From Spirochaetia bacterium (GTDB taxonomy: Bacteria; Spirochaetota; Spirochaetia; CADAEX01), in NCBI GenBank assembly GCA_017642445.1, contig JAGCPA010000095.1, positions 2,177-66,176 of the forward strand: a DNA stretch of 64,000 bases, given 5' to 3'. The notes below the pieces were generated by a model. That model ran no database searches. It had not been told where the DNA came from and saw only the letters and a program-made list of their open reading frames with translations. Positions within the stretch are counted from its first letter, which is position 1; each line of letters begins with the position of its first letter. Of this stretch, positions 6,195 to 58,502 are shown in pieces. Made by a program: the position numbers and the translations under genes.

Positions 6195-7525
6195 GCGAAG
6201 TAACAATGGATACATTGGTCTCCCTGTGCAAGAGAAGGGGATTTGTGTTCCAGTCAAGCGAGATCTACGGAGGTCTTTCCTCTGCATGGGACTACGGCCC
6301 TCTGGGAATCGCACTTAAGAAGAATATCCAGGAGTTCTGGTGGAAAGAGATGACCCGGCTCCATGACAATATCGTAGGTATTGATGCTGCCATCATGATG
6401 CACCCACGTGTCTGGGAGGCATCGGGCCATGTGGAGAACTTCACAGACCCTCTGGTGGACTGCAAGAAGTGCAAGATGCGTTTCCGCGAGGACAAGATTC
6501 CAGAGGAGAATGCAAAGAATAAGATCTGTCCTGAGTGCGGCGGCGAGCTTACTGCAACCAGACGGTTCAACCTTATGTTCAAGACCCATATCGGCCCTGT
6601 GGAAGATGACAACAACAACATCGTATACCTGCGGCCTGAGACAGCCCAGGGTATCTATGTAAACTTCAAGAACGTGGTCCAGAACTGCAGAATGAAGGTT
6701 CCTTTCGGTATTGCCCAGGTTGGAAAAGCATTCCGTAACGAGATTGTTACCAAGAACTTCATCTTCAGAACCTGCGAGTTCGAGCAGATGGAGATGCAGT
6801 ACTTTGTACAGCCAGAGGATGACATGAAATGGTTCGAGTACTGGAGAGGCGAGCGGTGGAACTACTACAAGAAGATGGGTATCCGTGAGAACAAGCTCCG
6901 CTGGCATCAGCACGGTCCAGATGAGCTGGCTCATTACGCAAAGTGCGCATACGACATTGAGTATGAATTCCCTATGGGCTTCCAGGAGCTGGAGGGTGTA
7001 CACAACAGAACCGACTACGACCTCACACGCCATACCCAGTATTCAGGCAAGGATCAGTCCTATCTTGAAGAGGGTACAAACAGGAAGTTCATCCCATATA
7101 TCATCGAGACTTCAGCCGGACTTACCAGAAACGTCCTTATGGTTCTCTCCGATGCATACGAGGAGCAGCAGGTTGCAGAGGGCGACACCAGAGTTGTCCT
7201 TCACTTCCATCCGAATATCGCACCTATCAAGCTGGCAGTATTCCCGCTGGTAAAGAAAGACGGCCTTGCAGAGCTTGCATCCGATATCGAGCACAACCTG
7301 CGCGATGAGTTTGCGACCTACTACGACCAGAGCGGAGCTATCGGAAGACGGTACCGCAGACAGGACGAGGTTGGAACTCCATACTGTATCACAGTCGACT
7401 ACCAGACTAAGGAAGACAACACAGTGACACTCCGTTTCAGAGATTCCATGGAGCAGGTGCGTGTCAAGATCGATGAGATTCCTGCATTCATCCGCAAGGC
7501 AGATAAAGAATATAAGAGAGTATGA
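6191..7525 (+). CDS. glyQS: Glycine--tRNA ligase, single-chain dimeric (alpha2) type
   Basis: 444 aa. N-terminus MDTLVSLCKRRGFVFQSSEIYGG plus class II motifs. Overlaps the gltX stop by 4 nt (ATGA). Confidence 0.93.
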   Translation: MSEVTMDTLVSLCKRRGFVFQSSEIYGGLSSAWDYGPLGIALKKNIQEFWWKEMTRLHDNIVGIDAAIMMHPRVWEASGHVENFTDPLVDCKKCKMRFREDKIPEENAKNKICPECGGELTATRRFNLMFKTHIGPVEDDNNNIVYLRPETAQGIYVNFKNVVQNCRMKVPFGIAQVGKAFRNEIVTKNFIFRTCEFEQMEMQYFVQPEDDMKWFEYWRGERWNYYKKMGIRENKLRWHQHGPDELAHYAKCAYDIEYEFPMGFQELEGVHNRTDYDLTRHTQYSGKDQSYLEEGTNRKFIPYIIETSAGLTRNVLMVLSDAYEEQQVAEGDTRVVLHFHPNIAPIKLAVFPLVKKDGLAELASDIEHNLRDEFATYYDQSGAIGRRYRRQDEVGTPYCITVDYQTKEDNTVTLRFRDSMEQVRVKIDEIPAFIRKADKEYKRV

Positions 7526-8745
7526 CCATGAACAAAGCGCTTGAAGTTCTTAAATCGAGAGGTTTTTTCCAGCAGTGTACAGATGTTGACGGTCTTTCTG
7601 CCCTTATGGACAAAGGTCCTGTCACATTCTATGTAGGATGCGACCCGACCGGCCCAAGCCTCCATATCGGCCACATGATTCCATTCTTTGCCCTGCGCCA
7701 CCTGCGCGCCATGGGACACCACGGAATCGCCCTGGTGGGCGGCGGTACAGCACGTATCGGCGACCCTTCCGGCAAGACCGAGATGCGGAAGATGCTCTCC
7801 TACGAGGTGCTGGATCAGAACACAGAGTCTATCAAGAAGCAGCTGGACAAGTTCATCGGCTTCGATGACAAGACTGCATTCTCTGCCAACAACAAGGACT
7901 GGCTTGCAGACCTCAACTACATCGACTTCCTCCGGGAGATCGGATCCCAGTTCTCGGTCAACAAGATGCTCACCTTTGAATCCTATAGGAAGAGGATGGA
8001 GACAGGCCTTTCCTTCATTGAATTCAACTATCAGCTCCTTCAGAGCTACGACTATCTTATGCTCCACAGAAAATACAACGCATGCCTCCAGATCGGCGGC
8101 GACGACCAGTGGGGTAACATAGTGGCAGGTATCGACCTTATCCGCCGTCTTACAGGCGACGAGTCCTACGGCCTCACATTCCCTCTGGTGACCAGATCTG
8201 ATGGCCAGAAGATGGGCAAGAGCGAGAAGGGAGCTATCTTCCTGAACCCGGAGCTTACACCTGTATACGACTTCTTCCAGTACTGGCGGAACGTGAACGA
8301 CCCGGATGTGGAGAAGTTCTTCAAACTCTTCACCTTCCTGCCGCTTGAGGAGATCGAGCAGATCTGCAAAGGCGACATCAACGCTGCCAAGGAGAGGCTG
8401 GCATACGAAGTCACTGCTCTTATCCACAGCAAGGAGGAGGCAGACAAGGCGCTCTCAGGAGCACGGGCTGCATTCAGCGGCTCAGGCAACAAGGAGCATA
8501 TGCCTACAGTCGAGGTTCCAAAGGCCGACTTTGAGGCTGGAATCGGCATTGTAGACCTGTTCTTCAAGGCTGTCGGCGGTACCAAGAGCGATGCACGGCG
8601 GCTGGTGGAGCAGGGGGGTGCAGTGGTTGCCGACCAGAACATCAGGGATGTTAAGGCAATAATCAATGCCGATGTCCTGGATGCCGACGGAGAAGTGGTC
8701 ATCAAGGCGGGCAAGAAAAAGATGTTCCGTGTGGTGACAAAATAA
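7522..8745 (+). CDS. tyrS: Tyrosine--tRNA ligase
   Basis: HIGH motif GCDPTGPSLHIGH and KMGKS motif. C-terminal S4-like domain. 4-nt overlap with glyQS. Confidence 0.95.
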   Translation: MTMNKALEVLKSRGFFQQCTDVDGLSALMDKGPVTFYVGCDPTGPSLHIGHMIPFFALRHLRAMGHHGIALVGGGTARIGDPSGKTEMRKMLSYEVLDQNTESIKKQLDKFIGFDDKTAFSANNKDWLADLNYIDFLREIGSQFSVNKMLTFESYRKRMETGLSFIEFNYQLLQSYDYLMLHRKYNACLQIGGDDQWGNIVAGIDLIRRLTGDESYGLTFPLVTRSDGQKMGKSEKGAIFLNPELTPVYDFFQYWRNVNDPDVEKFFKLFTFLPLEEIEQICKGDINAAKERLAYEVTALIHSKEEADKALSGARAAFSGSGNKEHMPTVEVPKADFEAGIGIVDLFFKAVGGTKSDARRLVEQGGAVVADQNIRDVKAIINADVLDADGEVVIKAGKKKMFRVVTK

Positions 8746-8749
8746 GCAG

Positions 8750-8782
8750 AACACCCTGTAACAAACAGGGTGTTTTTTTGTT
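8750..8782 (+). terminator. Rho-independent terminator after tyrS
   Basis: Hairpin aacaccctgt / acagggtgtt followed by a T7 run. Confidence 0.7.
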
Positions 8783-8841
8783 TGACTTTATAGAGTAATC
8801 AGACGATAATTAATATAAAGAAAAGATTTAAGGAGCTGACT

Positions 8842-9121
8842 ATGGCAGAAGAGAAAAAAAAATACTAAAAAAGTTATTCTTATCATAATTGCAATTGTAA
8901 TTATTATTCTGGCATGCCTCTATGGCTGTATTGCAAAAGGCAAGAGTGCCCCTGCAGCACAGACTGTATCAACTCCAGCTCCCGCAACTATAGAATCTGC
9001 TTCCCCGGCTCCGGCTCCGGCACCACAGCCTGCTCCAGCTCCAAAGCCAGCACCGGCACCAGAGCCTCAGAAGTCTATTTTCCCTGAAAACAGCGCAGAC
9101 TCACCTGTGACAGAAAAGTAA
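8842..9121 (+). pseudogene. Small membrane-anchored Pro/Ala-rich protein, interrupted by a frameshift at an A9 tract
   Basis: AAGGAG ribosome-binding site 6 nt upstream of ATG 8842. The reading frame reaches TAA at 8866 after MAEEKKKY. The downstream 85-codon ORF (KNTKKVILIIIAIVIIILACLYGC...PAPAPAPQPAPAPKPAPAPEPQ...TEK, stop at 9119-9121) has no start codon of its own. The two join only if the A9 run (8854-8862) is read as A8. Confidence 0.55.
8854..8862 (+). repeat. A9 homopolymer tract at a frameshift site
   Basis: Nine consecutive A residues, counted directly. Confidence 0.9.
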
Positions 9122-9220: not shown

Positions 9221-9964
9221 ATGTCCGGTCATAGCAAATGGGCAAGTATCAAGCATAAAAAAGGTGCTGCAGACGCAAAGCGCGGTCAGATCTTTACAAA
9301 GATCATCAAGGAGATAACTGTAGCTGCCAAGATGGGCGGCGGCGACGAAGAGGGAAATGCACGTCTTAGAACTGCTATCCTTAAGGCCAAGGCAGCCAAC
9401 ATGCCTAAAGACAACATCGACAAGGCTATCAAGAAAGGAACTGGAGAGCTTGAGGGTGTTGAATATGTAGAACTTCAGTACGAAGGCTATGGTCCAGGCG
9501 GAATCGCACTTCTTATCGAAACTCTTACAGACAACAAGAACCGGACAGCTGCTGATGTTAAGAGCGTTCTTGGAAAGGGCGGCGGAAACCTGGGAACTCC
9601 GGGAAGCGTATCCCACCTGTTCAAGAGAGAGGGAATCATCTGTTTCGATGCTTCCAAATATACTGAGGATGCTATCCTTGAGGCAGCTCTTGAGGCTGGT
9701 GCAGATGATGTTGCAACCGAGGATGACGAGATTGTTGTAAAGACATCACCAGAGGATTTCATGACAGTTCTCGATGCCCTTAACAAGGCTGGATTCGAGC
9801 AGACCTCTGCCGAGATTGAGCGGAATGCCATGATGCTTAAGACTCTGGACAAAGAGAAGACAGAGAAAGTTCTTAAGCTGGTTGAGCGGCTTGAGGAGCT
9901 TGATGATGTCCAGGAAGTTTCTCATGACCTGGATGTTCCAGACGATTTCGAGCTGGACGACTGA
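9221..9964 (+). CDS. yebC: YebC/PmpR family DNA-binding transcriptional regulator
   Basis: MSGHSKWASIKHKKGAADAKRG is the conserved YebC N-terminus. AAGGAGA ribosome-binding site. 247 aa. Confidence 0.9.
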   Translation: MSGHSKWASIKHKKGAADAKRGQIFTKIIKEITVAAKMGGGDEEGNARLRTAILKAKAANMPKDNIDKAIKKGTGELEGVEYVELQYEGYGPGGIALLIETLTDNKNRTAADVKSVLGKGGGNLGTPGSVSHLFKREGIICFDASKYTEDAILEAALEAGADDVATEDDEIVVKTSPEDFMTVLDALNKAGFEQTSAEIERNAMMLKTLDKEKTEKVLKLVERLEELDDVQEVSHDLDVPDDFELDD

Positions 9965-13135: not shown

Positions 13136-14089
13136 ATGAAAAAATCAATGTGTCTCATTCTTTGCGCAGTTCTTGCTGTCTCTGCATTTGCATCGGGCAG
13201 GAGCGAGAAACAGGATCTTAAAGAGATTAATATCTCCTACGTGCGCTCTCCGTTCAACCTCCCTCTTATCATAATGAAAGAGAAGGGAATGGCAGAGAAG
13301 GCTTTCGGCGAGAAGGGAATCAAAGTAAACTACTACGAGATCACCTCCGGAGCCAAGCAGTCCGAGGCTATTGCGGCAGGAAGCCTTGATATCGCATCGG
13401 TTATCAACTCTGCATCTGTAATCCTGGCCAATGCGGCAGGCAACCCTGTTGAGATCTTCGCTGGGTTCAGCAAGCCTGAGAAGATGTTCACAATCATGAC
13501 TTCAAACCCGGATGTAAAAACTCCGGCCGACCTTAAGGGAAAGAAAGTGGCAGGACCTAAGGGAACTGTGCTCCATGAGCTCTTGGTTGCAGCCCTGAAG
13601 AAAGAGGGCCTTACCACTGCCGATATAGAGTTCATCAACATGGGTATTCCTAACGGTGTGCAGGCTATGCTCTCCGGCAAGGTGGACTGTGCCCTGGCTG
13701 CCGCAGCCTCTGTGGTTAATGCCGAGAAGAACGGCGGCCGTGTTCTGGTGACCTGCGAAGGCTATGTGAGCCCGCTCCTTATCTCTGCCTGCGGCAAAAG
13801 TTTTGCAGAGAACCATCCCGATATGCTTGAGCTTTACATTGCGACATACAAAGAGGCAAAAGAGTGGATGGAAGCCAATATGGAAGAAGCCCTTGCAATC
13901 GGAGCCAAGGTTCAGGATATCTCTATAGAGGATGCAGAAAAGCTCTTTGCCTGGAGCAATTTCACCGACCATCTTACCAATGCAGACCTTGATGCCCTTG
14001 AGTATGACGTGAACTTCATGCTTGAGAACGGTATGATTGAGAAGCGCATCGACAAGATGGACTTTGTGAATAAAATGGCCCTGAGATAA
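13136..14089 (+). CDS. ABC-type substrate-binding lipoprotein, NMT1/SsuA/TauA-like family (orphan, no permease or ATPase nearby)
   Basis: Signal peptide with lipobox LILC. Periplasmic-binding fold typical of the sulfonate/nitrate/HMP-binding family. GAGG ribosome-binding site upstream. Confidence 0.65.
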   Translation: MKKSMCLILCAVLAVSAFASGRSEKQDLKEINISYVRSPFNLPLIIMKEKGMAEKAFGEKGIKVNYYEITSGAKQSEAIAAGSLDIASVINSASVILANAAGNPVEIFAGFSKPEKMFTIMTSNPDVKTPADLKGKKVAGPKGTVLHELLVAALKKEGLTTADIEFINMGIPNGVQAMLSGKVDCALAAAASVVNAEKNGGRVLVTCEGYVSPLLISACGKSFAENHPDMLELYIATYKEAKEWMEANMEEALAIGAKVQDISIEDAEKLFAWSNFTDHLTNADLDALEYDVNFMLENGMIEKRIDKMDFVNKMALR

Positions 14090-15760: not shown

Positions 15761-16300
15761 GTGAAGCGTATCTGTCTTTACCTATTCTTTGCATTCTTTA
15801 AAATCTCTTTCTTTACTGTAGGGGGAGGCCCTGTCATGCTGGCTGTCATGGACCAGGAGTTCCGCTGCCGCAGGAAGCTTCTTTCCGACACCCAGATGAA
15901 CGATATCCTTGCTGTCATCTACTCAATGCCTGGAGCCATAGGGGTGAACTCTGCCCTGAACATAGGTTATAAGCTGGGCGGCAAGAAAGGGGCAGCCTGT
16001 GCGCTTGTTGGGGTGCTTGTCCCTCCTGTTGCAATCATCCTGTTTATCACAACTTTTGTGGAGATGCTGAAGAGCTCGCCCCTTACCGGCTATGCCTTCA
16101 TAAGCATCCGGGCCGCTGTGACAGTGTTCATAATCTGTACTGTAGGCAACATGATGAAAAAAACATTCCGCTCCTGGAAGGATATTGTCATCGGTCTCTT
16201 TGCCTTCCTGGCTGTGGAGTTCATAAATCTACCGGCTGTCTATGTGGTTGCTGCATGCGGCCTTCTGGGAATGCTTATGTACCAGGGGGATGAACAGTGA
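15761..16300 (+). CDS. Chromate transporter family protein, short-chain half (1 of 2)
   Basis: FFTVGGGPVMLAVM matches the CHR family GGG motif. Half-size at 179 aa. Confidence 0.75.
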   Translation: MKRICLYLFFAFFKISFFTVGGGPVMLAVMDQEFRCRRKLLSDTQMNDILAVIYSMPGAIGVNSALNIGYKLGGKKGAACALVGVLVPPVAIILFITTFVEMLKSSPLTGYAFISIRAAVTVFIICTVGNMMKKTFRSWKDIVIGLFAFLAVEFINLPAVYVVAACGLLGMLMYQGDEQ

Positions 16301-22875: not shown

Positions 22876-22898
22876 ACCCCGGCTTTTGCCGGGGTTTT
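22876..22898 (+). terminator. Rho-independent terminator after the EF-G paralog
   Basis: ccccggc-tttt-gccgggg hairpin followed by a T5 run. Confidence 0.7.
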
Positions 22899-22915
22899 TA
22901 CTAGGGGGATACGCT

Positions 22916-23677
22916 ATGAAAAAGATTGCAATTTATGGAAAAGGGGGAATCGGTAAATCGACCGTCACCTCCAATATATCAGCAGCTCTGGCGATAAAAG
23001 GCTACAAAGTCATGCAGATAGGCTGCGACCCAAAGGCAGACTCTACAATCAACCTTATGCATGGAAAGCAGCTTGAGCCTGTCCTCAACTACATGCGTGA
23101 CCACGATTCAAATCCTAAGATTGAAGATATAATCCACCCCGGTTTCGCAGGTGTCATGTGCATGGAGACAGGCGGCCCGACACCGGGACTCGGCTGTGCC
23201 GGAAGGGGAATAATTGCCACATTCCAGCTTATGGACGAGCTCAATGTGTTCGACACCCTTAAGCCTGATGTTGTCCTCTATGATGTTCTTGGCGATGTTG
23301 TGTGCGGCGGTTTTGCTGCCCCGATCCGGGAGGGTTATGCCCAGGATATCTACATTGTAACCTCGGGCGAGAAGATGTCTCTCTTTGCTGCCAACAATAT
23401 ACGCACAGCAGTTAAGAACTTCGAGGAGAGGGGCTATGCCAGGGTGCGGGGAATAATCTTCAACTCCCGCGGTCTTAATGGCGAGGAGGAGAAAGTGCAG
23501 GCCTTTGCCGACAGCATTGGTGTCCCTGTCATCGGCCATCTGCCCAGATCCCAGGAGATTATGGATTTTGAGGACAAGGGAATGACTGTTGTGGAGGGAA
23601 ATCCAGACCTCCCTATAAGCAGAGAATTCCTCTCCATTGCAGATAAAATAATGAAGTGTAAGAACGATGAGAGCTGA
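22916..23677 (+). CDS. NifH/BchL/CfbC-family ATPase (nitrogenase iron protein-like)
   Basis: P-loop YGKGGIGKST and switch regions. Both [4Fe-4S]-ligating cysteines are conserved (GLGCAGRG, VVCGGFAAP). AGGGGGA ribosome-binding site. The track ORF starts earlier at 22886. Confidence 0.85.
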   Translation: MKKIAIYGKGGIGKSTVTSNISAALAIKGYKVMQIGCDPKADSTINLMHGKQLEPVLNYMRDHDSNPKIEDIIHPGFAGVMCMETGGPTPGLGCAGRGIIATFQLMDELNVFDTLKPDVVLYDVLGDVVCGGFAAPIREGYAQDIYIVTSGEKMSLFAANNIRTAVKNFEERGYARVRGIIFNSRGLNGEEEKVQAFADSIGVPVIGHLPRSQEIMDFEDKGMTVVEGNPDLPISREFLSIADKIMKCKNDES

Positions 23678-24977
23678 ATTCAGGACTATAGGACAACTTG
23701 CATCTGAAAAGAGAGAGAATAAGTCTGTACCTGTATTCGGCGGCTGCTGGCTGCACTACAACGGCCCCGGCAGTTCCGGCTACGGAGTCAAGCGGACCGC
23801 TATGCTGCTGCCGGAAAGTGCAATGCTTATGGTCGGCCCTATGGGGTGCAGCCGCTCCGGCACAGTAGTTGCCGAAAAATATTGCTTTGCCCACCGCATG
23901 TTCTATCTCCACCTTGACGACAGGAGCATCGCCCTTGGTTCTTATCTCAAGAGAATACCCGAAGCAGTCCAATATATAAAATATCTTGGCCAGTTCAAGG
24001 CAGTTCTTATCTGCATGACATGCCTGGATGCCCTGCTTGGGACTGACCTGGCCGGGATTGGGAAAAAGATAAGCCGTGAGGTTGGCATTCCTGTCACCAC
24101 AACTTTTATGGATCCGATTGTGAGGGATGGAAACTATGGCCCCATGGTGCAGGTCCGGCAGGCTATAACAAACTGCTTTGAAGCCCAGGAAAACGCCTCT
24201 GGAGGCAAAGATGCGGTCAACCTTCTTGGAACTTTTGCCCCGCTGGAGAATAAAAGCGAGCTTTTGACCATTCTTAAAGAGGCTGGAATAAAAGAGATAA
24301 AGACAGTCGCAGGCTGCAGTACCTTTGAGGAACTTAAGGATATGGGGAACTCCAGGGCAAATATAATAGTGCATCCTCAGGCTGCGGCATGCGGGGCAGA
24401 TTTGGAAAAACGCCTTGGTATGCCATATATAAAGCTTTTCACTTCTTATGTTCCAGATACAATTGAAGAGAATTATAAAAAGCTTGGAGAGCTCCTTAAG
24501 GCTGAGATCTGCTGCAAAGATGAGAAGAGAGCTGCAGAGAAAAAGATAGAGGAATTCGCTGATAAGCACCATGGAAAGAGGATTGCAGTAGGAGAGGCTG
24601 TCTGTGGAAATCCATTCGATATAGCTCTCATGATTTTAAATGCTGGAATAGAAGTGCCTTTTATCTTCAGAGATATGATTCACCCCGAGGACTGGGATTT
24701 AATTGCAGAACTGAACAGGATAGCACCAGAGCTCAAGGTCTATTCCGGAGTGCATCCTACTACAGCTGCATCTCCATCCTCGCTGCCAGAAGCTGACCTT
24801 ATGCTTGGTCTTGATGCAGGCTATTACAATCAGCAGGCAATAAGCGCCGCATGGCCATTCGACAGGACTTTCTACGGGTTTGACGGCATAAATGCGCTTC
24901 TTGAGATTATGGACAGTGCTTTCTCCAACCCTAAAGGGCACAGGGAGCAGATGAAAGGAACATATCTTACGGTGTAG
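23667..24977 (+). CDS. Nitrogenase component 1-type oxidoreductase, NifD/NifE/BchN-like subunit
   Basis: 436 aa. Start overlaps the nifH-like stop (ATGAGAGCTGA). N-terminal cysteines (GGCW, GPMGCSRSG, LICMTCLD) fit a subunit-interface cluster site. Nitrogenase/oxidoreductase component 1 fold. Confidence 0.7.
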   Translation: MRAEFRTIGQLASEKRENKSVPVFGGCWLHYNGPGSSGYGVKRTAMLLPESAMLMVGPMGCSRSGTVVAEKYCFAHRMFYLHLDDRSIALGSYLKRIPEAVQYIKYLGQFKAVLICMTCLDALLGTDLAGIGKKISREVGIPVTTTFMDPIVRDGNYGPMVQVRQAITNCFEAQENASGGKDAVNLLGTFAPLENKSELLTILKEAGIKEIKTVAGCSTFEELKDMGNSRANIIVHPQAAACGADLEKRLGMPYIKLFTSYVPDTIEENYKKLGELLKAEICCKDEKRAAEKKIEEFADKHHGKRIAVGEAVCGNPFDIALMILNAGIEVPFIFRDMIHPEDWDLIAELNRIAPELKVYSGVHPTTAASPSSLPEADLMLGLDAGYYNQQAISAAWPFDRTFYGFDGINALLEIMDSAFSNPKGHREQMKGTYLTV

Positions 24978-24985
24978 AGGGAAAT

Positions 24986-26008
24986 ATGAAAGGATTCTTC
25001 AGATATTTAGCCCCCTTTGCCCCGGACTACTCAGGGGCAGTCTCTGCCTTGTATGCTGCAGGAGGACTTGTTGTGCTGTGCGATCCGGGCGGGTGCTCCG
25101 GCAATGTGGCAGGTTACGACGAGCCCCGTTTCTATGGCGATAAAGTGTGCTTCTACAGCTCTGCCATAAGAGAGATGGACACAATTTTCGGCCGGGATGA
25201 CAAGCTTAAGAAGAAAATATGCGCCGCAGTTTCCCTTGGCAGCTATAAGTTTGTGGCTCTTGTCGGCACCCCTGCAGTCTCTGTGATAGGGACCGACCTT
25301 GCAGCCGCCGCTAAGGCAGTGGAGCAGGAGACAGGAATACCTGCATTCAGTGTATGCACATCCGGGATGGAGAATTACTCCTTCGGCGAGGCCAAGGCTA
25401 TAATGGCTTTTGTAAAGAAATTCCTGCCACCTGATCCTGCTGCTGTGTCATCAGCTGATACAGCAAAAATTGGGATATTCGGGGCTACACCGCTTAACAG
25501 GGCTTCTGATGATGACCTTGTCTCAATCGCTTCTGCAGATGGCGGCACTCTGTTATCTGAGAATACTGCAGTTGATGCATTGAGGAATATTACCCGGTTC
25601 AAAGAAATTGTATGTTATTCTCCTGGAGCAATAGGGGCATGCCGCCTTATAAAGGAGAGGTTCGGAATCCCATACAGCTTGAGCTATCCAGAGACTCCAT
25701 CCCTGATAAGGGCCACAGAAGAGGCTGGCAGCGCAAAGCGTATACTTATAGTGCATCAGCAGGGGGCAGGTAACACTCTGCGCAATATAATAAGGCGCAC
25801 TTCCGATGCCGAGATTGCTGTGGGAAGTTTCTTCCTGCAGGATTCTAAATTCGCTGAAAAACAGGATCTCTTCTTCCAGGGGGAAGATGAGCTTGCTGCC
25901 GCATCAAAAAAGGTTGACCTTGTATATGCCGACCCTATGTACAGAAGGGCTCTCTCTGCCGATGCAAGATTTGTCCCTCTGGTTCACTGCGCCCTTTCCG
26001 GCTGCTAA
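24986..26008 (+). CDS. Nitrogenase component 1-type oxidoreductase, NifK/NifN/BchB-like subunit
   Basis: 340 aa. GAGGG ribosome-binding site. N-terminal VVLCDPGGCSGN cysteines. Paired with the preceding D-like subunit in NifDK/BchNB fashion. Confidence 0.6.
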   Translation: MKGFFRYLAPFAPDYSGAVSALYAAGGLVVLCDPGGCSGNVAGYDEPRFYGDKVCFYSSAIREMDTIFGRDDKLKKKICAAVSLGSYKFVALVGTPAVSVIGTDLAAAAKAVEQETGIPAFSVCTSGMENYSFGEAKAIMAFVKKFLPPDPAAVSSADTAKIGIFGATPLNRASDDDLVSIASADGGTLLSENTAVDALRNITRFKEIVCYSPGAIGACRLIKERFGIPYSLSYPETPSLIRATEEAGSAKRILIVHQQGAGNTLRNIIRRTSDAEIAVGSFFLQDSKFAEKQDLFFQGEDELAAASKKVDLVYADPMYRRALSADARFVPLVHCALSGC

Positions 26009-26010: not shown

Positions 26011-26039
26011 AAAAAAAAGGCTGATTGAAAAATCAGCCT
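26011..26039 (-). terminator. Hairpin terminator, effective for minus-strand transcripts
   Basis: A8 run (26011-26018), then hairpin aggctgatt-gaaa-aatcagcct. Read on the minus strand this is a stem followed by T8. It may also attenuate + strand readthrough from the nif-like operon. Confidence 0.6.
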
Positions 26040-26571: not shown

Positions 26572-26983
26572 ACCTTCCTATTATATCGAAAACTAAATAA
26601 AAAACAATCGGCATAAGTATAAAGGAATATACCGTAATGGAGTTCTGGGGGTAATCTTGGATTGGCATGGGAAAATATATGATATTTCACGAGAAGAAAT
26701 TGAACAAAAAAAATGGAAACCTTAAAAAGGACTGCCACTATCCTTAGCAGGGATTGGGCCGATCCTTTAGATTTCCACTAAATTAAATATACCATATTTT
26801 GAGAGGAAGTCAAGCATGAAAAAAGTAAAAATATTTGGTACCGCACGATAAACGGACGGTAGACCGAGGGGACGCCCCCCCCGGCCAGGTGTTAGCCGCA
26901 CCTGCAGTAAACTGCTACCATCCGAACTTCCAGTTAAATTATCGGTGCGGTTCTTCATTATCTAAAGGAGGAAAAAAAATAGA

Positions 26984-27055
26984 ATGAAGACACCAATCAC
27001 TTATTATGGGGGCAAACAGCAGCTGGCACAGAAGATTATCAGCCTGATACTTTAG
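26984..27055 (+). pseudogene. Remnant of a Dam-like (D12 class) N6-adenine DNA methyltransferase N-terminus
   Basis: AAAGGAGG ribosome-binding site, then MKTPITYYGGKQQLAQKIISLIL followed by a stop. Y-x-GGK and KIISLI are characteristic of Dam-family N-termini. The rest of the gene is absent. Confidence 0.35.
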
Positions 27056-27253
27056 CATATAGAGCTGCCACAGATAATAGGGCAGTACGAAAGAATGTCT
27101 CACTCCCTCGGTGGCTCTCTATTCTTGCTGACCGCAAACATATAAATTGCTCACAAGTGCTACAGGAAGCCCTTATTGCAAGGTTGTAGTATAAACCCGG
27201 CGATATTTATTCTGATGATTGTATTTTTGCCATAAAAATAGTATACTTTTTGT

Positions 27254-29988: not shown

Positions 29989-30666
29989 ATGATAAATACA
30001 GTAACTGAAATTGATGACATGGTGGCACTTAAGAATGTGCTTATCAGCGTTTCAGATAAAACAGGGCTGGAGGCGTTTGTAAAAGGGCTTATCCAGATCA
30101 ATCCTGATATCAAGATCTATTCCACAGGCGGCACCTACACAGCAATCAAAGGATGGCTGGGCGATGCTGCGGAGAAGAACCTTATCCAGGTCTCTGACTA
30201 TACCAAGCAGCCTGAGATGCAGGGTGGTCTTGTAAAGACTCTGGACTTCAAGATCTACCTTGGAATTCTTTCCGAGACCTATAACGATGCCCACAAGAAG
30301 GACATTGCCCGAACCAACGCCACAATCTTTGACATGATAGTTGTGAACCTCTATCCGTTCGAGAAGACAGTAGCTAAAGCAGACTCCACTTCAGAGAATG
30401 CCCGTGGCAACATCGATATCGGCGGTCCATGCATGCTGAGAGCTTCTGCCAAGAACTTCCTGAGAGTAGCTTCTGTCACCGATCCTGCAGACTATCCTGT
30501 TATCCTTGATAATCTTAAGGCACAGAAGGGAGCGCTCAGCTTTGCACAGCGGTTTGAGCTTGCCAAGAAGACATTCAGCACCACCGCAAAGTACGACACA
30601 GCGATCAGCGCATATCTGGCAGGCCTTGCACCGTCCGATGCAGCCAAGGTATATAATCTTCACTAA
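29989..30666 (+). CDS. purH: IMP cyclohydrolase domain protein (N-terminal PurH domain, MGS-like), encoded as a separate gene
   Basis: LISVSDKTGL, STGGT, VVNLYPF and NIDIGGPCMLRASAKN are PurH IMP-cyclohydrolase motifs. Ends with TAA at 30664-30666. Confidence 0.85.
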   Translation: MINTVTEIDDMVALKNVLISVSDKTGLEAFVKGLIQINPDIKIYSTGGTYTAIKGWLGDAAEKNLIQVSDYTKQPEMQGGLVKTLDFKIYLGILSETYNDAHKKDIARTNATIFDMIVVNLYPFEKTVAKADSTSENARGNIDIGGPCMLRASAKNFLRVASVTDPADYPVILDNLKAQKGALSFAQRFELAKKTFSTTAKYDTAISAYLAGLAPSDAAKVYNLH

Positions 30667-30677: not shown

Positions 30678-31931
30678 ATGGCAGAAAATCTTAAGGATAT
30701 GTATAAAAACATCAACAAGGATGCCTTCCCACAGTTCATGGACATAAGCTTCCGGAACTCTGACAGCGACAGGCAGACCCTTTTCTACGAGAAGGTGCAG
30801 TGGGACATCGGCGGCGAGAAGCTGGGACTCCGCTATGGCGAGAACCCTGACCAGCCTGCTGCCATGTACAAGCTTATAAACGGCAACCTTGCCATCGGCG
30901 GGGTAGAGACTGTGCTCCAGGGGCGCTATCTGGCCTCTGACGTGGAGCTTCTTCAGTCTGGCAAACACCCTGGAAAGATCAATATCACCGACGTGGACAA
31001 CGGCCTCAATATCCTCCGTTTCTTCTCTGATACACCATGCAGCGTTATCATCAAGCACAACAACCCGTCAGGTGTAGCAAAGGGTGAGACACTTGCCGAT
31101 GCATTCCATAAATCCCTTATGGCAGACCGCATCGCAGCATTCGGTGGTGCAGTCATACTGAACAGGGAAGTGGACCTTGAGACTGCTGAGCAGGTGACAG
31201 AGGGCTATGTCGAGGTAGTTGCGGCACCTGAGTTCTCTCCAAAGGCTTTTGAGCTTTTCCAGACCAAGAAGAACCTCCGTGTGATGCGGATCAAGAATAT
31301 CGACAGGCTCCAGGACTTTGCCTATTCAAGGTTCATGGACTTCAAATCAATTCTGGACGGTGGTGTCATCGCACAGTGGTCATATCTTCCAAAGGCCCGC
31401 AAAAAGGAGGATTTCCTCCCTGCAGTATGCGAGTACAAGGGAAAAGAGTACAGGGTGAACCGGCAGCCTACCGACAAGGAGTTTGATGATATTATCTTCG
31501 GCTGGCTGGTGGAAAGCGGTGTTACAAGCAACTCTGTAATCTATGTGAAGGATGGCGTCACTGTTGGAATCGGTACCGGCGAGCAGGACCGTGTAGGTGT
31601 GGCCGAGATTGCCCGTGACAAGGCTTATAAGAAGATGTGCGACCGTATCTGCTGGGACCTCTATGAGAAATCCTGGTATGAGCTCACCGATCCTGAGAAG
31701 CGTGCATCCATCGAATCTGTTGTAAAGGATGAGCACGGCGGACTTAAGGGAAGCATCATGGTTTCCGACGCCTTCTTCCCGTTCCGTGACGGCATCGACA
31801 TCGGCCTTAAAGAGGGTGTCACAGCTGTGGTTCAGCCTGGCGGTTCCCTCCGTGACTTTGAATCTATCGAAGCCTGCAACGAATACAATGCAGCTATGGT
31901 CTACACAGGCCAGAGGAGTTTCAGGCACTGA
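30678..31931 (+). CDS. purH: AICAR transformylase domain protein (C-terminal PurH domain), encoded as a separate gene
   Basis: LRYGENPDQ, IIKHNNPSGVA, SDAFFPFRDG, VVQPGGSLRD and the C-terminal VYTGQRSFRH are AICAR-transformylase motifs. Has its own AAGGAG ribosome-binding site. It is in a different frame from the IMP-cyclohydrolase ORF. Confidence 0.85.
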   Translation: MAENLKDMYKNINKDAFPQFMDISFRNSDSDRQTLFYEKVQWDIGGEKLGLRYGENPDQPAAMYKLINGNLAIGGVETVLQGRYLASDVELLQSGKHPGKINITDVDNGLNILRFFSDTPCSVIIKHNNPSGVAKGETLADAFHKSLMADRIAAFGGAVILNREVDLETAEQVTEGYVEVVAAPEFSPKAFELFQTKKNLRVMRIKNIDRLQDFAYSRFMDFKSILDGGVIAQWSYLPKARKKEDFLPAVCEYKGKEYRVNRQPTDKEFDDIIFGWLVESGVTSNSVIYVKDGVTVGIGTGEQDRVGVAEIARDKAYKKMCDRICWDLYEKSWYELTDPEKRASIESVVKDEHGGLKGSIMVSDAFFPFRDGIDIGLKEGVTAVVQPGGSLRDFESIEACNEYNAAMVYTGQRSFRH

Positions 31932-33061
31932 TGGATAAGGCACATCTGCGTTCCAGAATCCTTATTATCCTCTTGACTTGCTCTCTTATCGGTCTTTTAG
32001 TGTTCAATATTGCGACACTGAATGCTGTGAAGAAGCTTTCTGCCTCTGCCAAAGAGACAGCAGCCGCAGTGGGCAACCTGGATTATACACTCCAGAACAT
32101 GGGAGAGGATCTTTCGGATGCACGGAATGTGCTTGGCCTTAAGATAAACAGCTATGGCTCAGACCTGGCACAGGATACGCCCCAGGCTCCTGCCGACGAC
32201 TATGCAGGCTACTACAGCGCACTGGACCAGCTTATGTCTGAGTTCAGCGAGTCTATGCTCAGGAAAGGGTGCGCCTATTTCATGGAATCCAAGGAGTGCC
32301 TTGACCTTTACCGTTCTCATAACCTTACACCGGTGCAGAAAGGGAGGGAGATACTCCTTTCCAGTGGAGGAAAGCTGTTCTACAGACTCTCTATCCTGCC
32401 TTATACCACCGGAGGCAAGGTGCAGTTCGATGCCGAGACCTTCGACAAGGTATCCGCTGCAAAGATAAGCACAGACAAGGAGCTTGCCTCCTTTATAGAT
32501 GCCAACAATATCCGTATCCATGCCCATTATGCCCAGCTTGACCCGGTGGCAAAGAAGATGGAGCAGCTTACAAGAAATCCACAGCTTCTTTCCTATCTGA
32601 CAGAGCAGAAGCTTTATATTAAGAAGCGGGATGCCGAGAATACCCAGACCGGCTACGATATCCGCCGCACCGACGGATCGCTCCTATGCAGCATGCTGCT
32701 TGATCTGGTTGAGGGTAATATCACACTGGGAAATATAAAGTGCAGCTCTACCGATGAGCTTTGGGAAGACCTTCTTAAGCTTCACACCCTGTTTGATATC
32801 AGGACTGTATCGGAGAAGAAGACAGAATCCAAGCTGGAAGAGCTTTCTGCCATGGTCAAGGATCCTGCTTTCACCGCATTCCTTGAGACCAAGGGGTGCA
32901 TCATAGCACAGACTCCGGAGGAGAAGGAAGAGAGCTACGACTTTGCCATAACTGACCGTGGCGGCTTTGTTATAGGCACACTCTCCCTTGAGAAGGATAC
33001 CGGCGAGGTATACCTCTTCGACAGCGACAACGTGGTTGTCTCCTCCGTAAAAAAAAACTGA
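31931..33061 (+). CDS. Membrane-anchored protein; probable N-terminal part of an LCP (LytR-CpsA-Psr) family protein broken by a frameshift
   Basis: N-terminal transmembrane helix. The ORF ends at TGA 33059-33061, immediately after the A9 tract 33049-33057. Reading A10 instead fuses it in frame with the downstream LCP-domain ORF. Confidence 0.5.
   Translation: MDKAHLRSRILIILLTCSLIGLLVFNIATLNAVKKLSASAKETAAAVGNLDYTLQNMGEDLSDARNVLGLKINSYGSDLAQDTPQAPADDYAGYYSALDQLMSEFSESMLRKGCAYFMESKECLDLYRSHNLTPVQKGREILLSSGGKLFYRLSILPYTTGGKVQFDAETFDKVSAAKISTDKELASFIDANNIRIHAHYAQLDPVAKKMEQLTRNPQLLSYLTEQKLYIKKRDAENTQTGYDIRRTDGSLLCSMLLDLVEGNITLGNIKCSSTDELWEDLLKLHTLFDIRTVSEKKTESKLEELSAMVKDPAFTAFLETKGCIIAQTPEEKEESYDFAITDRGGFVIGTLSLEKDTGEVYLFDSDNVVVSSVKKN
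33049..33057 (+). repeat. A9 homopolymer tract at a frameshift site
   Basis: Nine consecutive A residues, counted directly. Confidence 0.9.
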
Positions 33062-33114: not shown

Positions 33115-33876
33115 ATGAACCAGAGGAATACCGATACTCTTATTTTGGCAAACCTTGATCTGAACATGAACAAGGCCACCCTTATAAGCCTGCCTCGGGA
33201 CCTTTTCTACAAGCGCACCAAGATAAACAGCATCTACCGCCGTTTCGGCCCCAATGTCCTTGTCTCCTCTTTGTCTGATATGACAGGGCTCAGGATTGAT
33301 AAATATGTGATGGTTGATATGTATGCCTTTGCCGAGCTGGTGAATATACTCGGGGGCATAGATGTGGAGCTTACAGAGCCTCTGGTGGATCCGACTTACC
33401 GTGTGAGGGACGAGAACGGCAGGTGGTCGACCCTTTACTATCCGGCCGGGGTGCACCATGTGAACGGAGTCCAGGCGCTCAGGATAGCGCGGGCACGCCA
33501 TTATACCCCTGTCTTCTCACGGGATATGAGGCAGCAGCAGATCCTTAAGGCTGTGAAGAACAGACTTATGTCTATAGGCCTTTCCGACATAAACCGCTTA
33601 AGCCGTATCATAAAGCTCGGCTTCAAGTATGTGGAGACCGACATATCGTGGCTTGAGGCATTCAGCCTTTACAGGAACTGCCAGGATATAACCATAAACC
33701 AGGCGGTGCTGAGCACTGACAATGTTCTGTATGCCACATACACAAACCTCCTTGCCACAGGGCTGGAGGAGGACCAGGTGGCCGAAGACTTTGACAAAGG
33801 GGCTTGGATAGTGGTTCCTCTTGACAATGACTGGAAAGTTGTTAAAAAATTCATTGAGGAAAAGATTGCTGAATGA
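33115..33876 (+). CDS. LCP (LytR-CpsA-Psr) family domain protein, C-terminal part
   Basis: RNTDTLILANLD and ISLPRDL are LCP core motifs. The LCP-like sequence GHFTILICG continues upstream of the ATG in the same frame, back to the A9 tract. Confidence 0.65.
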   Translation: MNQRNTDTLILANLDLNMNKATLISLPRDLFYKRTKINSIYRRFGPNVLVSSLSDMTGLRIDKYVMVDMYAFAELVNILGGIDVELTEPLVDPTYRVRDENGRWSTLYYPAGVHHVNGVQALRIARARHYTPVFSRDMRQQQILKAVKNRLMSIGLSDINRLSRIIKLGFKYVETDISWLEAFSLYRNCQDITINQAVLSTDNVLYATYTNLLATGLEEDQVAEDFDKGAWIVVPLDNDWKVVKKFIEEKIAE

Positions 33877-35162
33877 AAAAGTATTTTCTTGAGACATACG
33901 GCTGTCAGATGAACAAGGCTGAGTCCGACTCCCTGGAGCTTATCCTTAAGCGCAGAGGATGGGAGAGCGTCTCATCCGACATCCAGGCCGACCTCATAAT
34001 CATAAACACCTGCTCTGTGCGCCAGACTGCAGAGGACCGCATCTGGGGCCGCATAGGCTACTTCAAGAAGCTTAAGGAGAGCCACAGCTTCAAGCTGGTC
34101 ATAATCGGCTGCATGGCCCAGCGGGTCAAGGAGGAGCTCTACACCACCTGCAAGGGGACTGTAGACCTGGTTCTCGGCACCTTGGAGAAGAACAATATTC
34201 TTGAGTACCTTGAGGGGCTTCCAGAGGAGGAGAGCAGCACCTACACCTTCCAGGAGTACCATTCCGACGGAAAGAGCTTCAAGACTTTTGTCCCCATAAT
34301 GCACGGCTGCAACAACTTCTGCTCCTACTGCATAGTCCCTTATGTGCGGGGGCGCGAGGTGTCACGGAGCGCCGAGGAGATTCTCCACGAGATTGAGTTC
34401 CTGGAGCAGCACAATGTCAAGGAGATAACTCTTTTAGGACAGAATGTGAACTCCTACCGTGGAACATACCAGGGGAGGGAAATCTCATTTCATGAGCTTT
34501 TAGATCTTATCTGCGGCCGCATAAGCTCTATCGGCTGGGTCCGCTTCCTCTCATCCCATCCCAAGGACTTCAGCTCTGCTTTGATCGACACCATAGCGGC
34601 AAATCCACAGGTGTGCCGTCATATACACCTTCCTGTCCAGCACGGTAGCAACCGCATCCTCTCCCTTATGAACCGCCGCTACACCAAGGAGCACTATCTG
34701 GATATCGTGGCCGAGATAAAGGAGAAGATTCCGGGTGTATCCCTTACCACCGACATCCTCATAGGATTCCCCGGCGAGACTGAGGAGGATCTGGATGCCA
34801 CCCTGGACCTTATGCAGAAGGTGCGCTTTATAGATGCCTACACCTACTATTACAACCCCAGGGAGGGAACCAAGGCCTGCACCATGGCCGACAGTCTGCC
34901 CCTTGAGACCAAGCTTAAGAGGCTTGAGAAGGTGATTGCCCTGCAGCACCGTATAAGCGCCGAGGAGAAGGAGAATAAGGTGGGCCATGTGCAGCATGTC
35001 CTGGTGGAATCGGTCTCTAAAAAGGATAAAACCGAGATGCTGGGACGCACCGAGGGGGATGAGATGGTTGTTTTTCCCGAAAAATGTGATACAATAGGGA
35101 AGTTCTTAGATGTTAAGCTTCTTTCCTGCAATGGAAATACATACAAAGGAGAAAGAGTATGA
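33873..35162 (+). CDS. miaB: MiaB-family tRNA methylthiotransferase (radical SAM plus TRAM domain)
   Basis: N-terminal ETYGCQMN, radical-SAM CNNFCSYC, and a C-terminal TRAM domain. 429 aa. Confidence 0.78.
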   Translation: MKKYFLETYGCQMNKAESDSLELILKRRGWESVSSDIQADLIIINTCSVRQTAEDRIWGRIGYFKKLKESHSFKLVIIGCMAQRVKEELYTTCKGTVDLVLGTLEKNNILEYLEGLPEEESSTYTFQEYHSDGKSFKTFVPIMHGCNNFCSYCIVPYVRGREVSRSAEEILHEIEFLEQHNVKEITLLGQNVNSYRGTYQGREISFHELLDLICGRISSIGWVRFLSSHPKDFSSALIDTIAANPQVCRHIHLPVQHGSNRILSLMNRRYTKEHYLDIVAEIKEKIPGVSLTTDILIGFPGETEEDLDATLDLMQKVRFIDAYTYYYNPREGTKACTMADSLPLETKLKRLEKVIALQHRISAEEKENKVGHVQHVLVESVSKKDKTEMLGRTEGDEMVVFPEKCDTIGKFLDVKLLSCNGNTYKGERV

Positions 35163-56795: not shown

Positions 56796-56823
56796 AAAAA
56801 AGCCCGCATCTGCGGGCTTTTTT
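56796..56823. terminator. Bidirectional rho-independent terminator (serves the tRNA and the convergent ankyrin gene)
   Basis: A run, then hairpin gcccgc-atct-gcgggc, then T6, immediately after the tRNA 3' end. Confidence 0.75.
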
Positions 56824-57970
56824 ATTCCTTTGCGCCTGCTTTGAGCAGGAGCTGCTCTATATCCTTTGCACCCAGATCTCTGGACATGGAGAGAGGGGTG
56901 TTGCCACCTTTTGATTTGACATTCACCTCGGCCCCCTTGTAGATCAGGACTTCTGTCATCTCATAGTTCTGGGCCATCACTGCCAGAAGCAGAGCTGTCT
57001 TATTATCCTTGTCCGCAGCATTTATATCTGCACCCATTACCAGCGAGCGGTAGAAATTCTCCTTCTTGCCGTTCTGCACCGATTTAAACAGCATCTCTGT
57101 GGCCTGCGATTCTGAAAGTATTGTAGAAGTCGGCTCTACCGGCTTGGGTTCTTCCTTCACAGGCTTCTTTGCCTTTGCTTTTGCAGGCTTTGGCTCTTCC
57201 TTATGCTGGGGCGGTGCAGCCACAGGCTTCTCTGGTTCTGCCTTTGTCACATTGGTTGCAACCATAACGGCTGGAACTGTGCTCTTCTCTGCATTTTTAA
57301 GAACCTTCTGTATTCTATTGTACTCTTTTCTGTCAGCTTTGTTTGTCTTGGATTTCTTTGCATCATCCGACAGCTTATCCACTCCGAAGTCGTGCCGCTC
57401 ATCGCCTGATTCGCTTATTGCAAATGATCCGGAAAGGGTGCAGCCTCTGTTCATCATGAACTCTATCACATCTGCGCTGTAGTCGCTGCTGCAGGCTGCA
57501 AACCAGATAGGATTCTTGTAGGATTTCATTATTTTGCCGGCCGATTCATAATCTCCGGATTCATCCCGTATCTCTCCGGAATTAATATCAATTCCTGCAT
57601 CCAGCAGAATCTGGATTATTTTAATGGTGTTGGCCGGGTCGTGGGTCTCTCTGTTGCTCCATACTGCGCCGGTCAGGGCATTGCCTCCAAGTGCGTCGTC
57701 CGCTCTGAGCGAGATATCAGCTCCAGCTTTAATAAAAAGGGATACTATATCGGCATTTCCCACATTGGCAGCAGCCATTACTGCAGGCTGGCCGTTAGGC
57801 ATGAAAGTGTTGGGATCGAAGCCGCCGTCAAGCATAGCCTTCACCCCGGCAGCATCTCCTGCCTCGATAGCTTTGAGCATCTCTTTCGGGTCATCGTATG
57901 CAGATACAGATGCGGTTATGAACATAAATATGGCAATCAAGCTCAGAAAGAGCAAAAATCTTCTTCTCAT
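56822..57970 (-). CDS. Secreted ankyrin-repeat protein with a Lys/Pro-rich linker
   Basis: Signal peptide (RRRFLLFLSLIAIFMFITASVSA), ankyrin repeats at both ends, and a central linker PEKPVAAPPQHKEEPKPAKAKAKKPVKEEPKPVEP. Start placed at the third ATG (57970), which has an AGGAG ribosome-binding site 6 nt upstream. The ORF is open to 57988. Confidence 0.75.
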   Translation of the reverse strand: MRRRFLLFLSLIAIFMFITASVSAYDDPKEMLKAIEAGDAAGVKAMLDGGFDPNTFMPNGQPAVMAAANVGNADIVSLFIKAGADISLRADDALGGNALTGAVWSNRETHDPANTIKIIQILLDAGIDINSGEIRDESGDYESAGKIMKSYKNPIWFAACSSDYSADVIEFMMNRGCTLSGSFAISESGDERHDFGVDKLSDDAKKSKTNKADRKEYNRIQKVLKNAEKSTVPAVMVATNVTKAEPEKPVAAPPQHKEEPKPAKAKAKKPVKEEPKPVEPTSTILSESQATEMLFKSVQNGKKENFYRSLVMGADINAADKDNKTALLLAVMAQNYEMTEVLIYKGAEVNVKSKGGNTPLSMSRDLGAKDIEQLLLKAGAKE

Positions 57971-57992
57971 CATCAACTCCTGATTCATAGTA

Positions 57993-58502
57993 TCAGTTCT
58001 TCTTCAGTTCCTCAAGGCCACTCTCACACAGCTTTACTATGGAGGCAGCGGCATTCCTTATAGACTGTGGATTGTCGCCGTCAGAAGGGTTCCTGAGCAT
58101 CAGCTCCAGCTGGTTCTCATCACCCTGGGCAAACTTCACGTTAAGGGAGAGTGTCTTCTGGATCTCGTCATATTGGGAGGCCAGGTTTGCAAGGGCATCC
58201 TGATTCTTCTCATCAATAGCCTTGATAAGGGCGCTGAAGTAATTCCGGACCAGAGAGTACTGGATGAACTCAATCTCAAGCTTGGATAGGGCAGTCACCT
58301 CAACTTTCTGTACATCATCAATCTTCTTCTCAGCCAGCTCGGTTATGTTCCCTGCGTGGTAAAACACCTGATCTACAGCAACAGACTCAAGGTAGAATCC
58401 GTTCTTCTCCAGCCACTCCTTGAAACCAACAAGCACCTCGCTGATATATGTCTCATCCTTCCGGTTGAATGTCACCTCTTTGCCGTTTACAAATATCTGC
58501 AT
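57993..58502 (-). CDS. Hypothetical protein
   Basis: 169-aa acidic protein. No family recognised. Confidence 0.45.
   Translation of the reverse strand: MQIFVNGKEVTFNRKDETYISEVLVGFKEWLEKNGFYLESVAVDQVFYHAGNITELAEKKIDDVQKVEVTALSKLEIEFIQYSLVRNYFSALIKAIDEKNQDALANLASQYDEIQKTLSLNVKFAQGDENQLELMLRNPSDGDNPQSIRNAAASIVKLCESGLEELKKN

What the first reader, a model, noticed from the sequence alone, without database searches (positions are those of the whole stretch)
8842..9121. Gene for a membrane-anchored Pro/Ala-rich protein is out of frame at an A9 tract. Candidate for transcriptional slippage or phase variation.
A good ribosome-binding site and ATG at 8842 open a frame that stops after 8 codons. The next frame runs 85 codons with a transmembrane helix and a PAPAPAPQPAPAPKPAPAPEPQ linker, but has no start codon. 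A stop codon lies just upstream of it. The two parts join exactly if the A9 run at 8854-8862 is read as A8. Runs of nine or more A residues are known hotspots for RNA-polymerase slippage and for slipped-strand mispairing.
Basis: seen in the sequence. Interest (0 to 1): 0.5.

Follow-up and report, generated by a model that had tools for sequence, protein, structure and literature searches.

The report
Strain-private frameshift in small spirochaete lipoprotein gene
A small, conserved envelope-protein gene of a rumen spirochaete is knocked out of frame in this sequence by an A9 run found in none of 22 related sequences, so it is an ordinary recent frameshift (or a local sequencing error), not a built-in recoding or switching device.

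Summary
ATG 8842 with a good RBS opens a frame that stops after 8 codons. The next frame (8864-9121) encodes the rest of a protein but has no start codon. Reading A9 (8854-8862) as A8 joins the two parts.

The gene is real. In total, 22 orthologous loci from rumen-spirochaete metagenome contigs and MAGs carry an intact 91-94-aa ORF (115 aa in one contig whose stop codon is mutated), with dN/dS 0.09-0.15. The product has a lipoprotein-type signal peptide, a Pro/Ala-rich linker and a conserved C-terminal motif, and matches no Pfam or NCBIfam family.

The A9 run is private to this window. The eleven contigs 98.6-99.9% identical to the window read GAG-AAAAACAA-T there, except one that reads AAACACAA. 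More distant orthologs have A runs of at most 6. The window differs by C→A plus one extra A.

Across 54.8 kb compared with independent near-identical assemblies, this is the only indel. Seven other homopolymers of 8-9 nt agree in length.

The tract is therefore not a conserved programmed slippage or phase-variation site. The most likely reading is a recent strain-specific frameshift allele, possibly leaky or revertible because A9 is slippery. A local consensus error is the main rival. Low interest.

The parts
8748..8776 (+). Intrinsic terminator of the upstream tyrS gene (7522-8745)
   Evidence: 12-bp stem, 5-nt loop, followed by a T run.
8782..8810 (+). Sigma-70-like promoter candidate for the small gene (TTGACT-17-GATAAT)
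   Evidence: 10 of 12 matches. The TTGACT...GATAAT upstream region is conserved in orthologs.
8830..8835 (+). Ribosome-binding site AAGGAG, 6 nt before the ATG
   Evidence: AAGGAGCTGA is conserved in all orthologous loci.
8842..8868 (+). Start codon and the 8-codon frame (MAEEKKKY*) as templated in this sequence
8854..8862 (+). A9 run: the frameshifting lesion. Near-identical relatives have AAAAACAA (8 nt) here, so the window carries C→A at 8860 plus one extra A.
8864..9121 (+). Body of the small gene in the +1 frame (85 codons plus TAA), orthologous to codons 8-92 of the intact genes
   Evidence: dN/dS is 0.09-0.15 among intact orthologs.
8873..8917 (+). Hydrophobic core VILIIIAIVIIILA plus lipobox Cys25 (IILAC), i.e. 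a predicted lipoprotein signal peptide or signal anchor
   Evidence: a PROSITE-type lipobox regular expression matches, ending at C25. LACLYGC is nearly invariant in the family. Processing itself is inferred.
8948..9064 (+). Pro/Ala-rich, length-variable linker
   Evidence: this part of the alignment is indel-rich and low-complexity.
9065..9118 (+). Conserved C-terminal motif PQKSIFP(D/E)NSADSPVTEK
   Evidence: P75, Q76, S78, I79 and F80 are invariant in 15 sequences.

Best explanation
Positions 8842-9121 hold a strain-specific frameshift allele of a small conserved gene (92 aa in the closest relatives). The gene belongs to a narrow clade of ruminant-gut spirochaetes.

**Predicted product (inferred).** The intact protein has a Lys-rich N-terminus, a hydrophobic core and a lipobox cysteine (C25). 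This predicts a lipoprotein, or at least a signal-anchored protein. A disordered Pro/Ala-rich tether and a short conserved C-terminal motif would sit outside the cytoplasm.

**The lesion (shown).** In this sequence codon 6 (AAC, Asn) has become AAAA. This fuses A5 and A2 into an A9 run. Translation from the ATG therefore ends after 8 codons, and the gene is off at the DNA level.

**Likely route (inferred).** A C→A substitution first made an in-frame A8 run (N6K). Replication slippage on that run then added one A.

**Consequences (inferred).** A9 is intrinsically slippery. A minority of transcripts with A8 or A11, or ribosomes sliding +1 on the run, could still yield some full-length protein. 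The allele could also revert easily. This would be an accidental property of a fresh mutation, not an evolved recoding or switching device.
For: **The gene is real and under selection**
- 22 orthologous loci are intact.
- 15 protein homologues were found, all from rumen spirochaete data.
- dN/dS is 0.09-0.15.
- The promoter-like site, RBS and tyrS terminator are in place.

**The run is private and derived**
- All eleven contigs 98.6-99.9% identical to the window read AAAAACAA, or AAACACAA in one.
- No A run of 7 or more occurs anywhere in loci L001-L015.
- Distant orthologs have runs of at most 4-6.

**The assembly looks accurate**
- Window 4522-59355 (54.8 kb) aligns to independent assemblies at 99.8-99.96% identity. 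The only indel is at 8854.
- Seven other homopolymers of 8-9 nt have the same length in those assemblies: A8 ×4, T8, C8 and A9 at 33049.
- The change is a substitution plus an insertion. That fits a two-step mutation better than a homopolymer miscount.

**A9 is slippage-prone**
- Baranov 2005 (PMC1088944) identifies nine nucleotides as the typical critical length and describes disrupted ORFs restorable by slippage.
- Only 1 of the 7 A/T runs of 8 nt or more in the window lies inside a long ORF, although about 95% of the window is in long ORFs. Such runs are therefore avoided in coding sequence here.

**Lipobox**
- The lipobox pattern matches at C25.
Against: - No reads are available, so a consensus error at this one site cannot be excluded.
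- The gene is under purifying selection in every relative, so a null allele is somewhat unexpected.
- The window's own strain was not found in other public assemblies, so the A9 allele has no independent confirmation.
- Leaky expression and reversion are inferred from other organisms. They were not tested in spirochaetes.
Confidence: 0.6

Rival explanations
1. Sequencing or consensus error. The true sequence is in frame, either A8 (with a genuine C→A SNP giving N6K) or A5CA2 as in relatives, and the extra A is an artefact of base-calling or polishing in an A-rich stretch.
For: - Homopolymers are the commonest site of indel errors.
- The allele is unique among the window and 22 orthologous loci.
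- The gene is under purifying selection.
- The frameshift is a single base.
Against: - Over 54.8 kb compared with independent near-identical assemblies there is no other indel. Seven other runs of 8-9 nt agree in length, including another A9 and a C8.
- Relative to the population consensus the change needs a substitution as well as an insertion.
- The other private differences of the window are ordinary, mostly synonymous SNPs, as expected for a clean assembly of a distinct strain.
Confidence: 0.25
2. Functional phase variation or programmed transcriptional slippage. The A run is a contingency tract that switches a surface lipoprotein ON and OFF, or sets a fixed low expression level by RNA-polymerase slippage.
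For: - A9 lies early in the ORF of a predicted surface or envelope protein, the typical setting for contingency loci.
- A9 is at the known slippage threshold.
- Long A/T runs are otherwise avoided in coding DNA here.
Against: - The tract is absent from every orthologue, including 99.9%-identical strains, where a C interrupts it.
- No A8 or A10 alleles were seen.
- A conserved device would be expected to keep the run.
- No downstream RNA structure was found (z = -0.15).
Confidence: 0.1
3. The downstream frame is translated on its own from a non-canonical start. Candidates are ATT 8876, ATC or ATA, possibly by re-initiation after the 8-codon mini-ORF that stops at 8866-8868.
For: Several ATT, ATC and ATA codons lie within 10-25 nt of the TAA stop.
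Against: - No Shine-Dalgarno sequence precedes them.
- The product would lack the Lys-rich n-region, which is nearly invariant in the family and needed for a signal peptide.
- All orthologues use the ATG at the position of 8842.
Confidence: 0.03

Closest known systems
Frameshifted genes in poly(A)/poly(T) runs that may be rescued by transcriptional slippage. Examples are the Blochmannia and Buchnera endosymbiont genes (PMC3017870) and the disrupted ORFs listed by Baranov et al. 2005 (PMC1088944).
   Same: - A single-base indel inside an A run of 9 or more.
- The gene is otherwise undegraded.
- Frame restoration is possible by ±1 or +2 A in the mRNA.
   Different: - In the endosymbionts some frameshifts are conserved across populations and species and the rescue was shown experimentally. 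Here the run and the frameshift occur in one sequence only, and nothing has been measured.
- This genome is not AT-rich (49% GC) and otherwise avoids such runs in genes.
Programmed transcriptional slippage sites: Thermus thermophilus dnaX A9 (described in PMC1088944) and Citrobacter rodentium and Yersinia tssM A11 (PMC4256274).
   Same: A run of 9-11 A in the sense strand next to a stop codon, so that RNA-polymerase slippage yields two products.
   Different: Those runs are conserved and both products are functional. Here the run is absent from all orthologues, and the templated product is an 8-residue peptide.
Homopolymer-tract phase variation of surface proteins. These are classical contingency loci. 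In spirochaetes the example is the poly-G tracts upstream of Treponema pallidum tpr genes (e.g. PMC7864442, listed, abstract only).
   Same: - A hypermutable mononucleotide run controls whether a predicted envelope protein is made.
- The organism is a spirochaete.
   Different: - Contingency tracts are maintained and vary in length between and within strains. Here relatives have an interrupted, stable sequence and no length series was found.
- The T. pallidum tracts are poly-G, and their location in promoter regions is recalled from my own knowledge.
Bacterial lipoproteins with a disordered Pro/Ala-rich tether
   Same: - Lys-rich n-region, hydrophobic core and lipobox Cys at position 25.
- A low-complexity linker follows the Cys.
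   Different: - The mature part is only about 67 residues and has no globular domain.
- No Pfam or NCBIfam family reaches its cut-off.
- The family is confined to rumen spirochaete data.

Membership tests
Programmed transcriptional slippage (recoding) site | Homopolymeric A or T run of slippage-prone length (about 9 or more) in the coding strand | tested here: met
   A9 at 8854-8862. The threshold is taken from PMC1088944.
Programmed transcriptional slippage (recoding) site | The run and the two-frame gene organisation are conserved in orthologues | tested here: not met
   All 22 orthologous loci have one uninterrupted ORF and no run longer than 6.
Programmed transcriptional slippage (recoding) site | Heterogeneous run length in mRNA, and protein products from both frames | not testable with these tools
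   This needs cDNA amplicon sequencing and proteomics.
Phase-variable contingency locus | Simple-sequence tract within the ORF or promoter whose length sets ON or OFF | tested here: met
   A9 is out of frame, A8 and A11 are in frame.
Phase-variable contingency locus | Tract-length polymorphism between or within strains, with the tract itself maintained | tested here: not met
   The eleven contigs 98.6-99.9% identical to the window all have A5CA2, or A3CACA2 in one. No A8 or A10 allele was found. Within-population variation was not testable.
Phase-variable contingency locus | The product is surface-exposed or interacts with the environment | tested here: inconclusive
   A signal peptide and lipobox are predicted. 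Localisation is unknown.
Frameshift pseudogene / null allele | Intact orthologues exist, and the sequence here has a frame-disrupting indel relative to them | tested here: met
Frameshift pseudogene / null allele | The lesion is real in the organism's DNA, not an assembly artefact | not testable with these tools
   No reads are available. Indirect support comes from the absence of any other indel in 54.8 kb, with the other 8-9-nt homopolymers concordant.
Bacterial lipoprotein (SPII substrate) | Positively charged n-region, hydrophobic h-region and a lipobox [LVI][ASTVI][GAS]C within about the first 35 residues | tested here: met
   A PROSITE-style regular expression matches IIAIVIIILAC, ending at C25. 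K5, K9, K10 and LACLYGC are nearly invariant. The pattern itself was recalled from memory.
Bacterial lipoprotein (SPII substrate) | Lipidation by Lgt and cleavage by LspA | not testable with these tools
   This needs globomycin sensitivity or palmitate labelling.

The most novel reading that the evidence does not exclude
The A9 run is real and marks the birth of a contingency locus. A single C→A change turned a stable codon string into a hypermutable tract. This strain would now switch a conserved small surface lipoprotein ON and OFF by A8/A9 replication slippage. It might also express the protein at a low level through RNA-polymerase slippage, which would be the first such case in a gut-commensal spirochaete.
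Probability: 0.12. Interest if true: 0.4.

Novelty: new member of a known kind. Interest (0 to 1): 0.15.

Why it matters
It matters little beyond annotation.

- The locus should be annotated as a frameshifted copy of a conserved small lipoprotein-like gene, not left as an empty intergenic gap. It should be flagged for read-level checking.
- The one mildly useful by-product is the recognition of a small orphan family confined to rumen spirochaete data. It consists of a signal peptide with lipobox, a PA-rich tether and a conserved PQKSIFPDNSADSPVTEK tail. Gene callers miss it in several contigs.
- If the A9 allele proved real and variable, it would be a neat natural example of how one point mutation creates a slippery, switchable tract.

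Tried and rejected
- **Exact-sequence look-up of allele products** (A5CA2, A8, A11, His variant and 93-aa form) in the 15-billion-protein collection. None is on record, not even the 92-aa protein known from L002, so the test is uninformative.
- **JGI metagenome scan with a length-tolerant tract pattern**: 0 hits. A second scan with a degenerate LACLYGCIAKG pattern gave 3 further intact orthologues.
- **The same tract pattern on GTDB species representatives**. It returned only the 93%-identical MAG (Spirochaetia bacterium RGIG9769, yak omasum) and one chance match in a Lachnospiraceae MAG. The window's own species representative was not hit.
- **Search for the window's own strain through a protein with private amino-acid variants** (15836-16300): not on record. 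Look-ups of 31931-33061 and 33873-35162 also found nothing, possibly because the called starts or the protein sequences differ in other strains.
- **Pfam and NCBIfam**: only sub-threshold compositional matches (TonB, SslE, FliL and similar). Rejected as family assignments.
- **Rfam on the whole window**: one tRNA at 56723. Nothing lies near the finding.
- **RNA fold downstream of the tract**: z = -0.15, so no frameshift-stimulating structure. Classical +1 ribosomal frameshifting is rejected for that reason, and also because the 0-frame stop is not adjacent to the run and the site is not conserved.
- **Overlapping 57-aa ORF 8914-9087 and the 32-aa minus-strand ORF 8788-8886**. Both are disregarded, because conservation and dN/dS support the lipoprotein frame.
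- **Structure prediction** was not run. The protein is a signal peptide plus low-complexity linker, so a model would not bear on the question.

Full report
**1. The observation**

The sequence is as described.
- AAGGAG lies at 8830-8835 and the ATG at 8842.
- The ATG frame reads GCA GAA GAG, then nine A's (8854-8862), then TAC TAA. That is MAEEKKKY followed by a stop at 8866-8868.
- The +1 frame is open from 8840, right after a TGA at 8837-8839, to the TAA at 9119-9121. It contains no ATG, GTG or TTG until 9108.
- Its 85 codons from 8864 encode a hydrophobic segment and a PAPAPAPQPAPAPKPAPAPEPQ stretch.
- Reading A8 gives a continuous 92-aa ORF. A11 gives 93 aa.

**2. The gene is real**

Exact-protein look-ups with the flanking genes (yebC at 9221-9964, tyrS at 7522-8745, and 13136-14089) returned 15 and then more contigs. 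They come from ruminant gastro-intestinal metagenomes and one NCBI MAG, Spirochaetia bacterium RGIG9769 from yak omasum. These carry the same tyrS-[small gene]-yebC-ruvC-ruvA-ruvB-queA arrangement.

In every one the small ORF is uninterrupted, at 92 or 93 aa. One contig reaches 115 aa because its stop codon is mutated.

A protein search found 15 homologues, all from such data, with none above cut-off in Pfam or NCBIfam. Seven further, more divergent DNA loci (L036-L042) are also intact.

Pairwise dN/dS among four orthologues is 0.09-0.15, so this is a protein-coding gene under purifying selection.

The family shares four features:
- a Lys-rich N-terminus;
- a hydrophobic core;
- a nearly invariant LACLYGC, where a PROSITE-type lipobox pattern matches at Cys25;
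- a length-variable Pro/Ala-rich linker and a conserved PQKSIFP(D/E)NSADSPVTEK tail.

I infer a small lipoprotein, or at least a signal-anchored envelope protein. Processing and function are untested.

The gene sits behind the tyrS terminator (8748-8776). It has its own promoter-like site (8782-8810) and RBS, and both upstream elements are conserved.

**3. The A9 run is private to this window**

All eleven contigs that are 98.6-99.9% identical to the window read GAG AAA AAC AAT ACT, except L008, which has AAA CAC AAT. The window therefore differs by C→A at 8860 plus one extra A.

No A run of 7 or more exists anywhere in L001-L015. The 93%-identical lineage has AAAAACAAC. More distant orthologues spell the N-terminus with mixed AAA and AAG codons, and their longest A run is 4.

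No A8 or A10 allele was seen. The two other differences inside the gene (8983 and 8986, both synonymous) are polymorphisms shared with another sub-lineage.

**4. Artefact or mutation?**

Reads are not available, but the assembly can be judged indirectly.
- Window 4522-59355 (54.8 kb) is covered by independent assemblies at 99.8-99.96% identity.
- The only indel in all of that is the one at 8854.
- The other long homopolymers all have the same length in the other assemblies. These are A8 at 26011, 26706, 26972 and 49373, T8 at 26128, C8 at 26875 and A9 at 33049.
- Most of the window's private substitutions that were translated are synonymous. The two amino-acid changes found lie in 15836-16300.

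The assembly is therefore not homopolymer-error-prone, and the lesion combines a substitution with an insertion. A two-step history fits naturally. C→A first makes an in-frame A8 (N6K), and replication slippage then makes A9, because the first step creates the hypermutable run.

I put a real mutation at about 0.6 and a local consensus error at about 0.25. The most plausible error is a real A8 over-called by one.

**5. Is it a programmed slippage or phase-variation site?**

The run length is right. Baranov et al. found nine nucleotides to be the typical length at which selection against A/T runs in genes becomes evident. They also listed disrupted ORFs that slippage could restore (PMC1088944).

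This genome also seems to avoid such runs in genes. Of seven A/T runs of 8 nt or more in the window, only one lies in a long ORF, within its last four codons, although about 95% of the window is in long ORFs.

The defining comparative feature of programmed sites and contingency loci is a maintained tract, and that was tested and not met (section 3). There is also no RNA structure downstream, and the 0-frame stop is not adjacent to the run.

Any rescue by RNA-polymerase slippage, by ribosome sliding on the A run, or by reversion would be an incidental consequence of a fresh mutation. This resembles the situation discussed for endosymbiont genes (PMC3017870), but without their conservation or experimental support.

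**6. Comparison with known systems, and novelty**

The locus works like the known class of genes frameshifted in an A run that may be leaky. It is not a member of the programmed recoding sites (T. thermophilus dnaX, tssM; PMC4256274). It is also not one of the classical contingency loci, nor like the T. pallidum poly-G tracts.

It is a new, unremarkable instance of a known kind. The small protein family is an uncharacterised orphan confined to rumen spirochaete data, which is the only modest addition.

**7. Verdict**

The slippery run and the restorable frame are correct, but the site is not a conserved device.
- Most likely it is a recent strain-specific null allele. The main rival is a single-base consensus error.
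- Interest is 0.15.
- The most novel reading not excluded is the de novo birth of a switchable tract in a surface lipoprotein gene, at about 0.12 probability.

Noticed in passing
window 22886-26008: Three adjacent genes, one NifH-like (Fer4_NifH) and two with Oxidored_nitro domains, form a nitrogenase-like trio in a rumen spirochaete (Pfam marks on the identical contig L026).
   Followed up: no
window 29989-30666 and 30678-31931: The two PurH activities appear as two separate genes (225 aa with MGS/IMPCH, 417 aa with AICARFT), separated by 11 nt. The arrangement is the same in three independent contigs, so it is not a frameshift.
   Followed up: partly
window 33049-33057: A second A9 run lies in the last four codons (…VKKN*) of the hypothetical gene 31931-33061. 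Its length is identical in three independent assemblies, so it serves as an internal control for the finding.
   Followed up: partly
window 26572-27253: A 680-bp gene-free stretch upstream of secA holds A8, C8 and A8 runs (26706, 26875, 26972). It has no Rfam match, and its run lengths are conserved among strains.
   Followed up: partly
window 8983 and 8986: Two synonymous SNPs inside the small gene are shared with the 98.6-99.2% contig group, while the flanks match the 99.9% group. This suggests a small recombination mosaic around the gene.
   Followed up: partly
L015 (window-equivalent 9119): One metagenome contig has TAA→AAA at the stop codon of the small gene, which extends the ORF to 115 aa.
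   Followed up: no
L001, L003, L004, L007, L009, L012-L014: Gene callers left the intact 92/93-aa ORF uncalled in many contigs. The family is therefore systematically under-annotated.
   Followed up: partly
window 56822-58502: An ankyrin-repeat protein and a protein with a TP0873_N domain sit side by side (Pfam on identical contigs). The latter supports a Treponema-like affiliation for the organism.
   Followed up: no
L036 4046-4558: In this divergent Logan contig no ruvC was called between yebC and ruvA. A 170-aa minus-strand ORF was called there instead, which may reflect a frameshift or a calling artefact.
   Followed up: no
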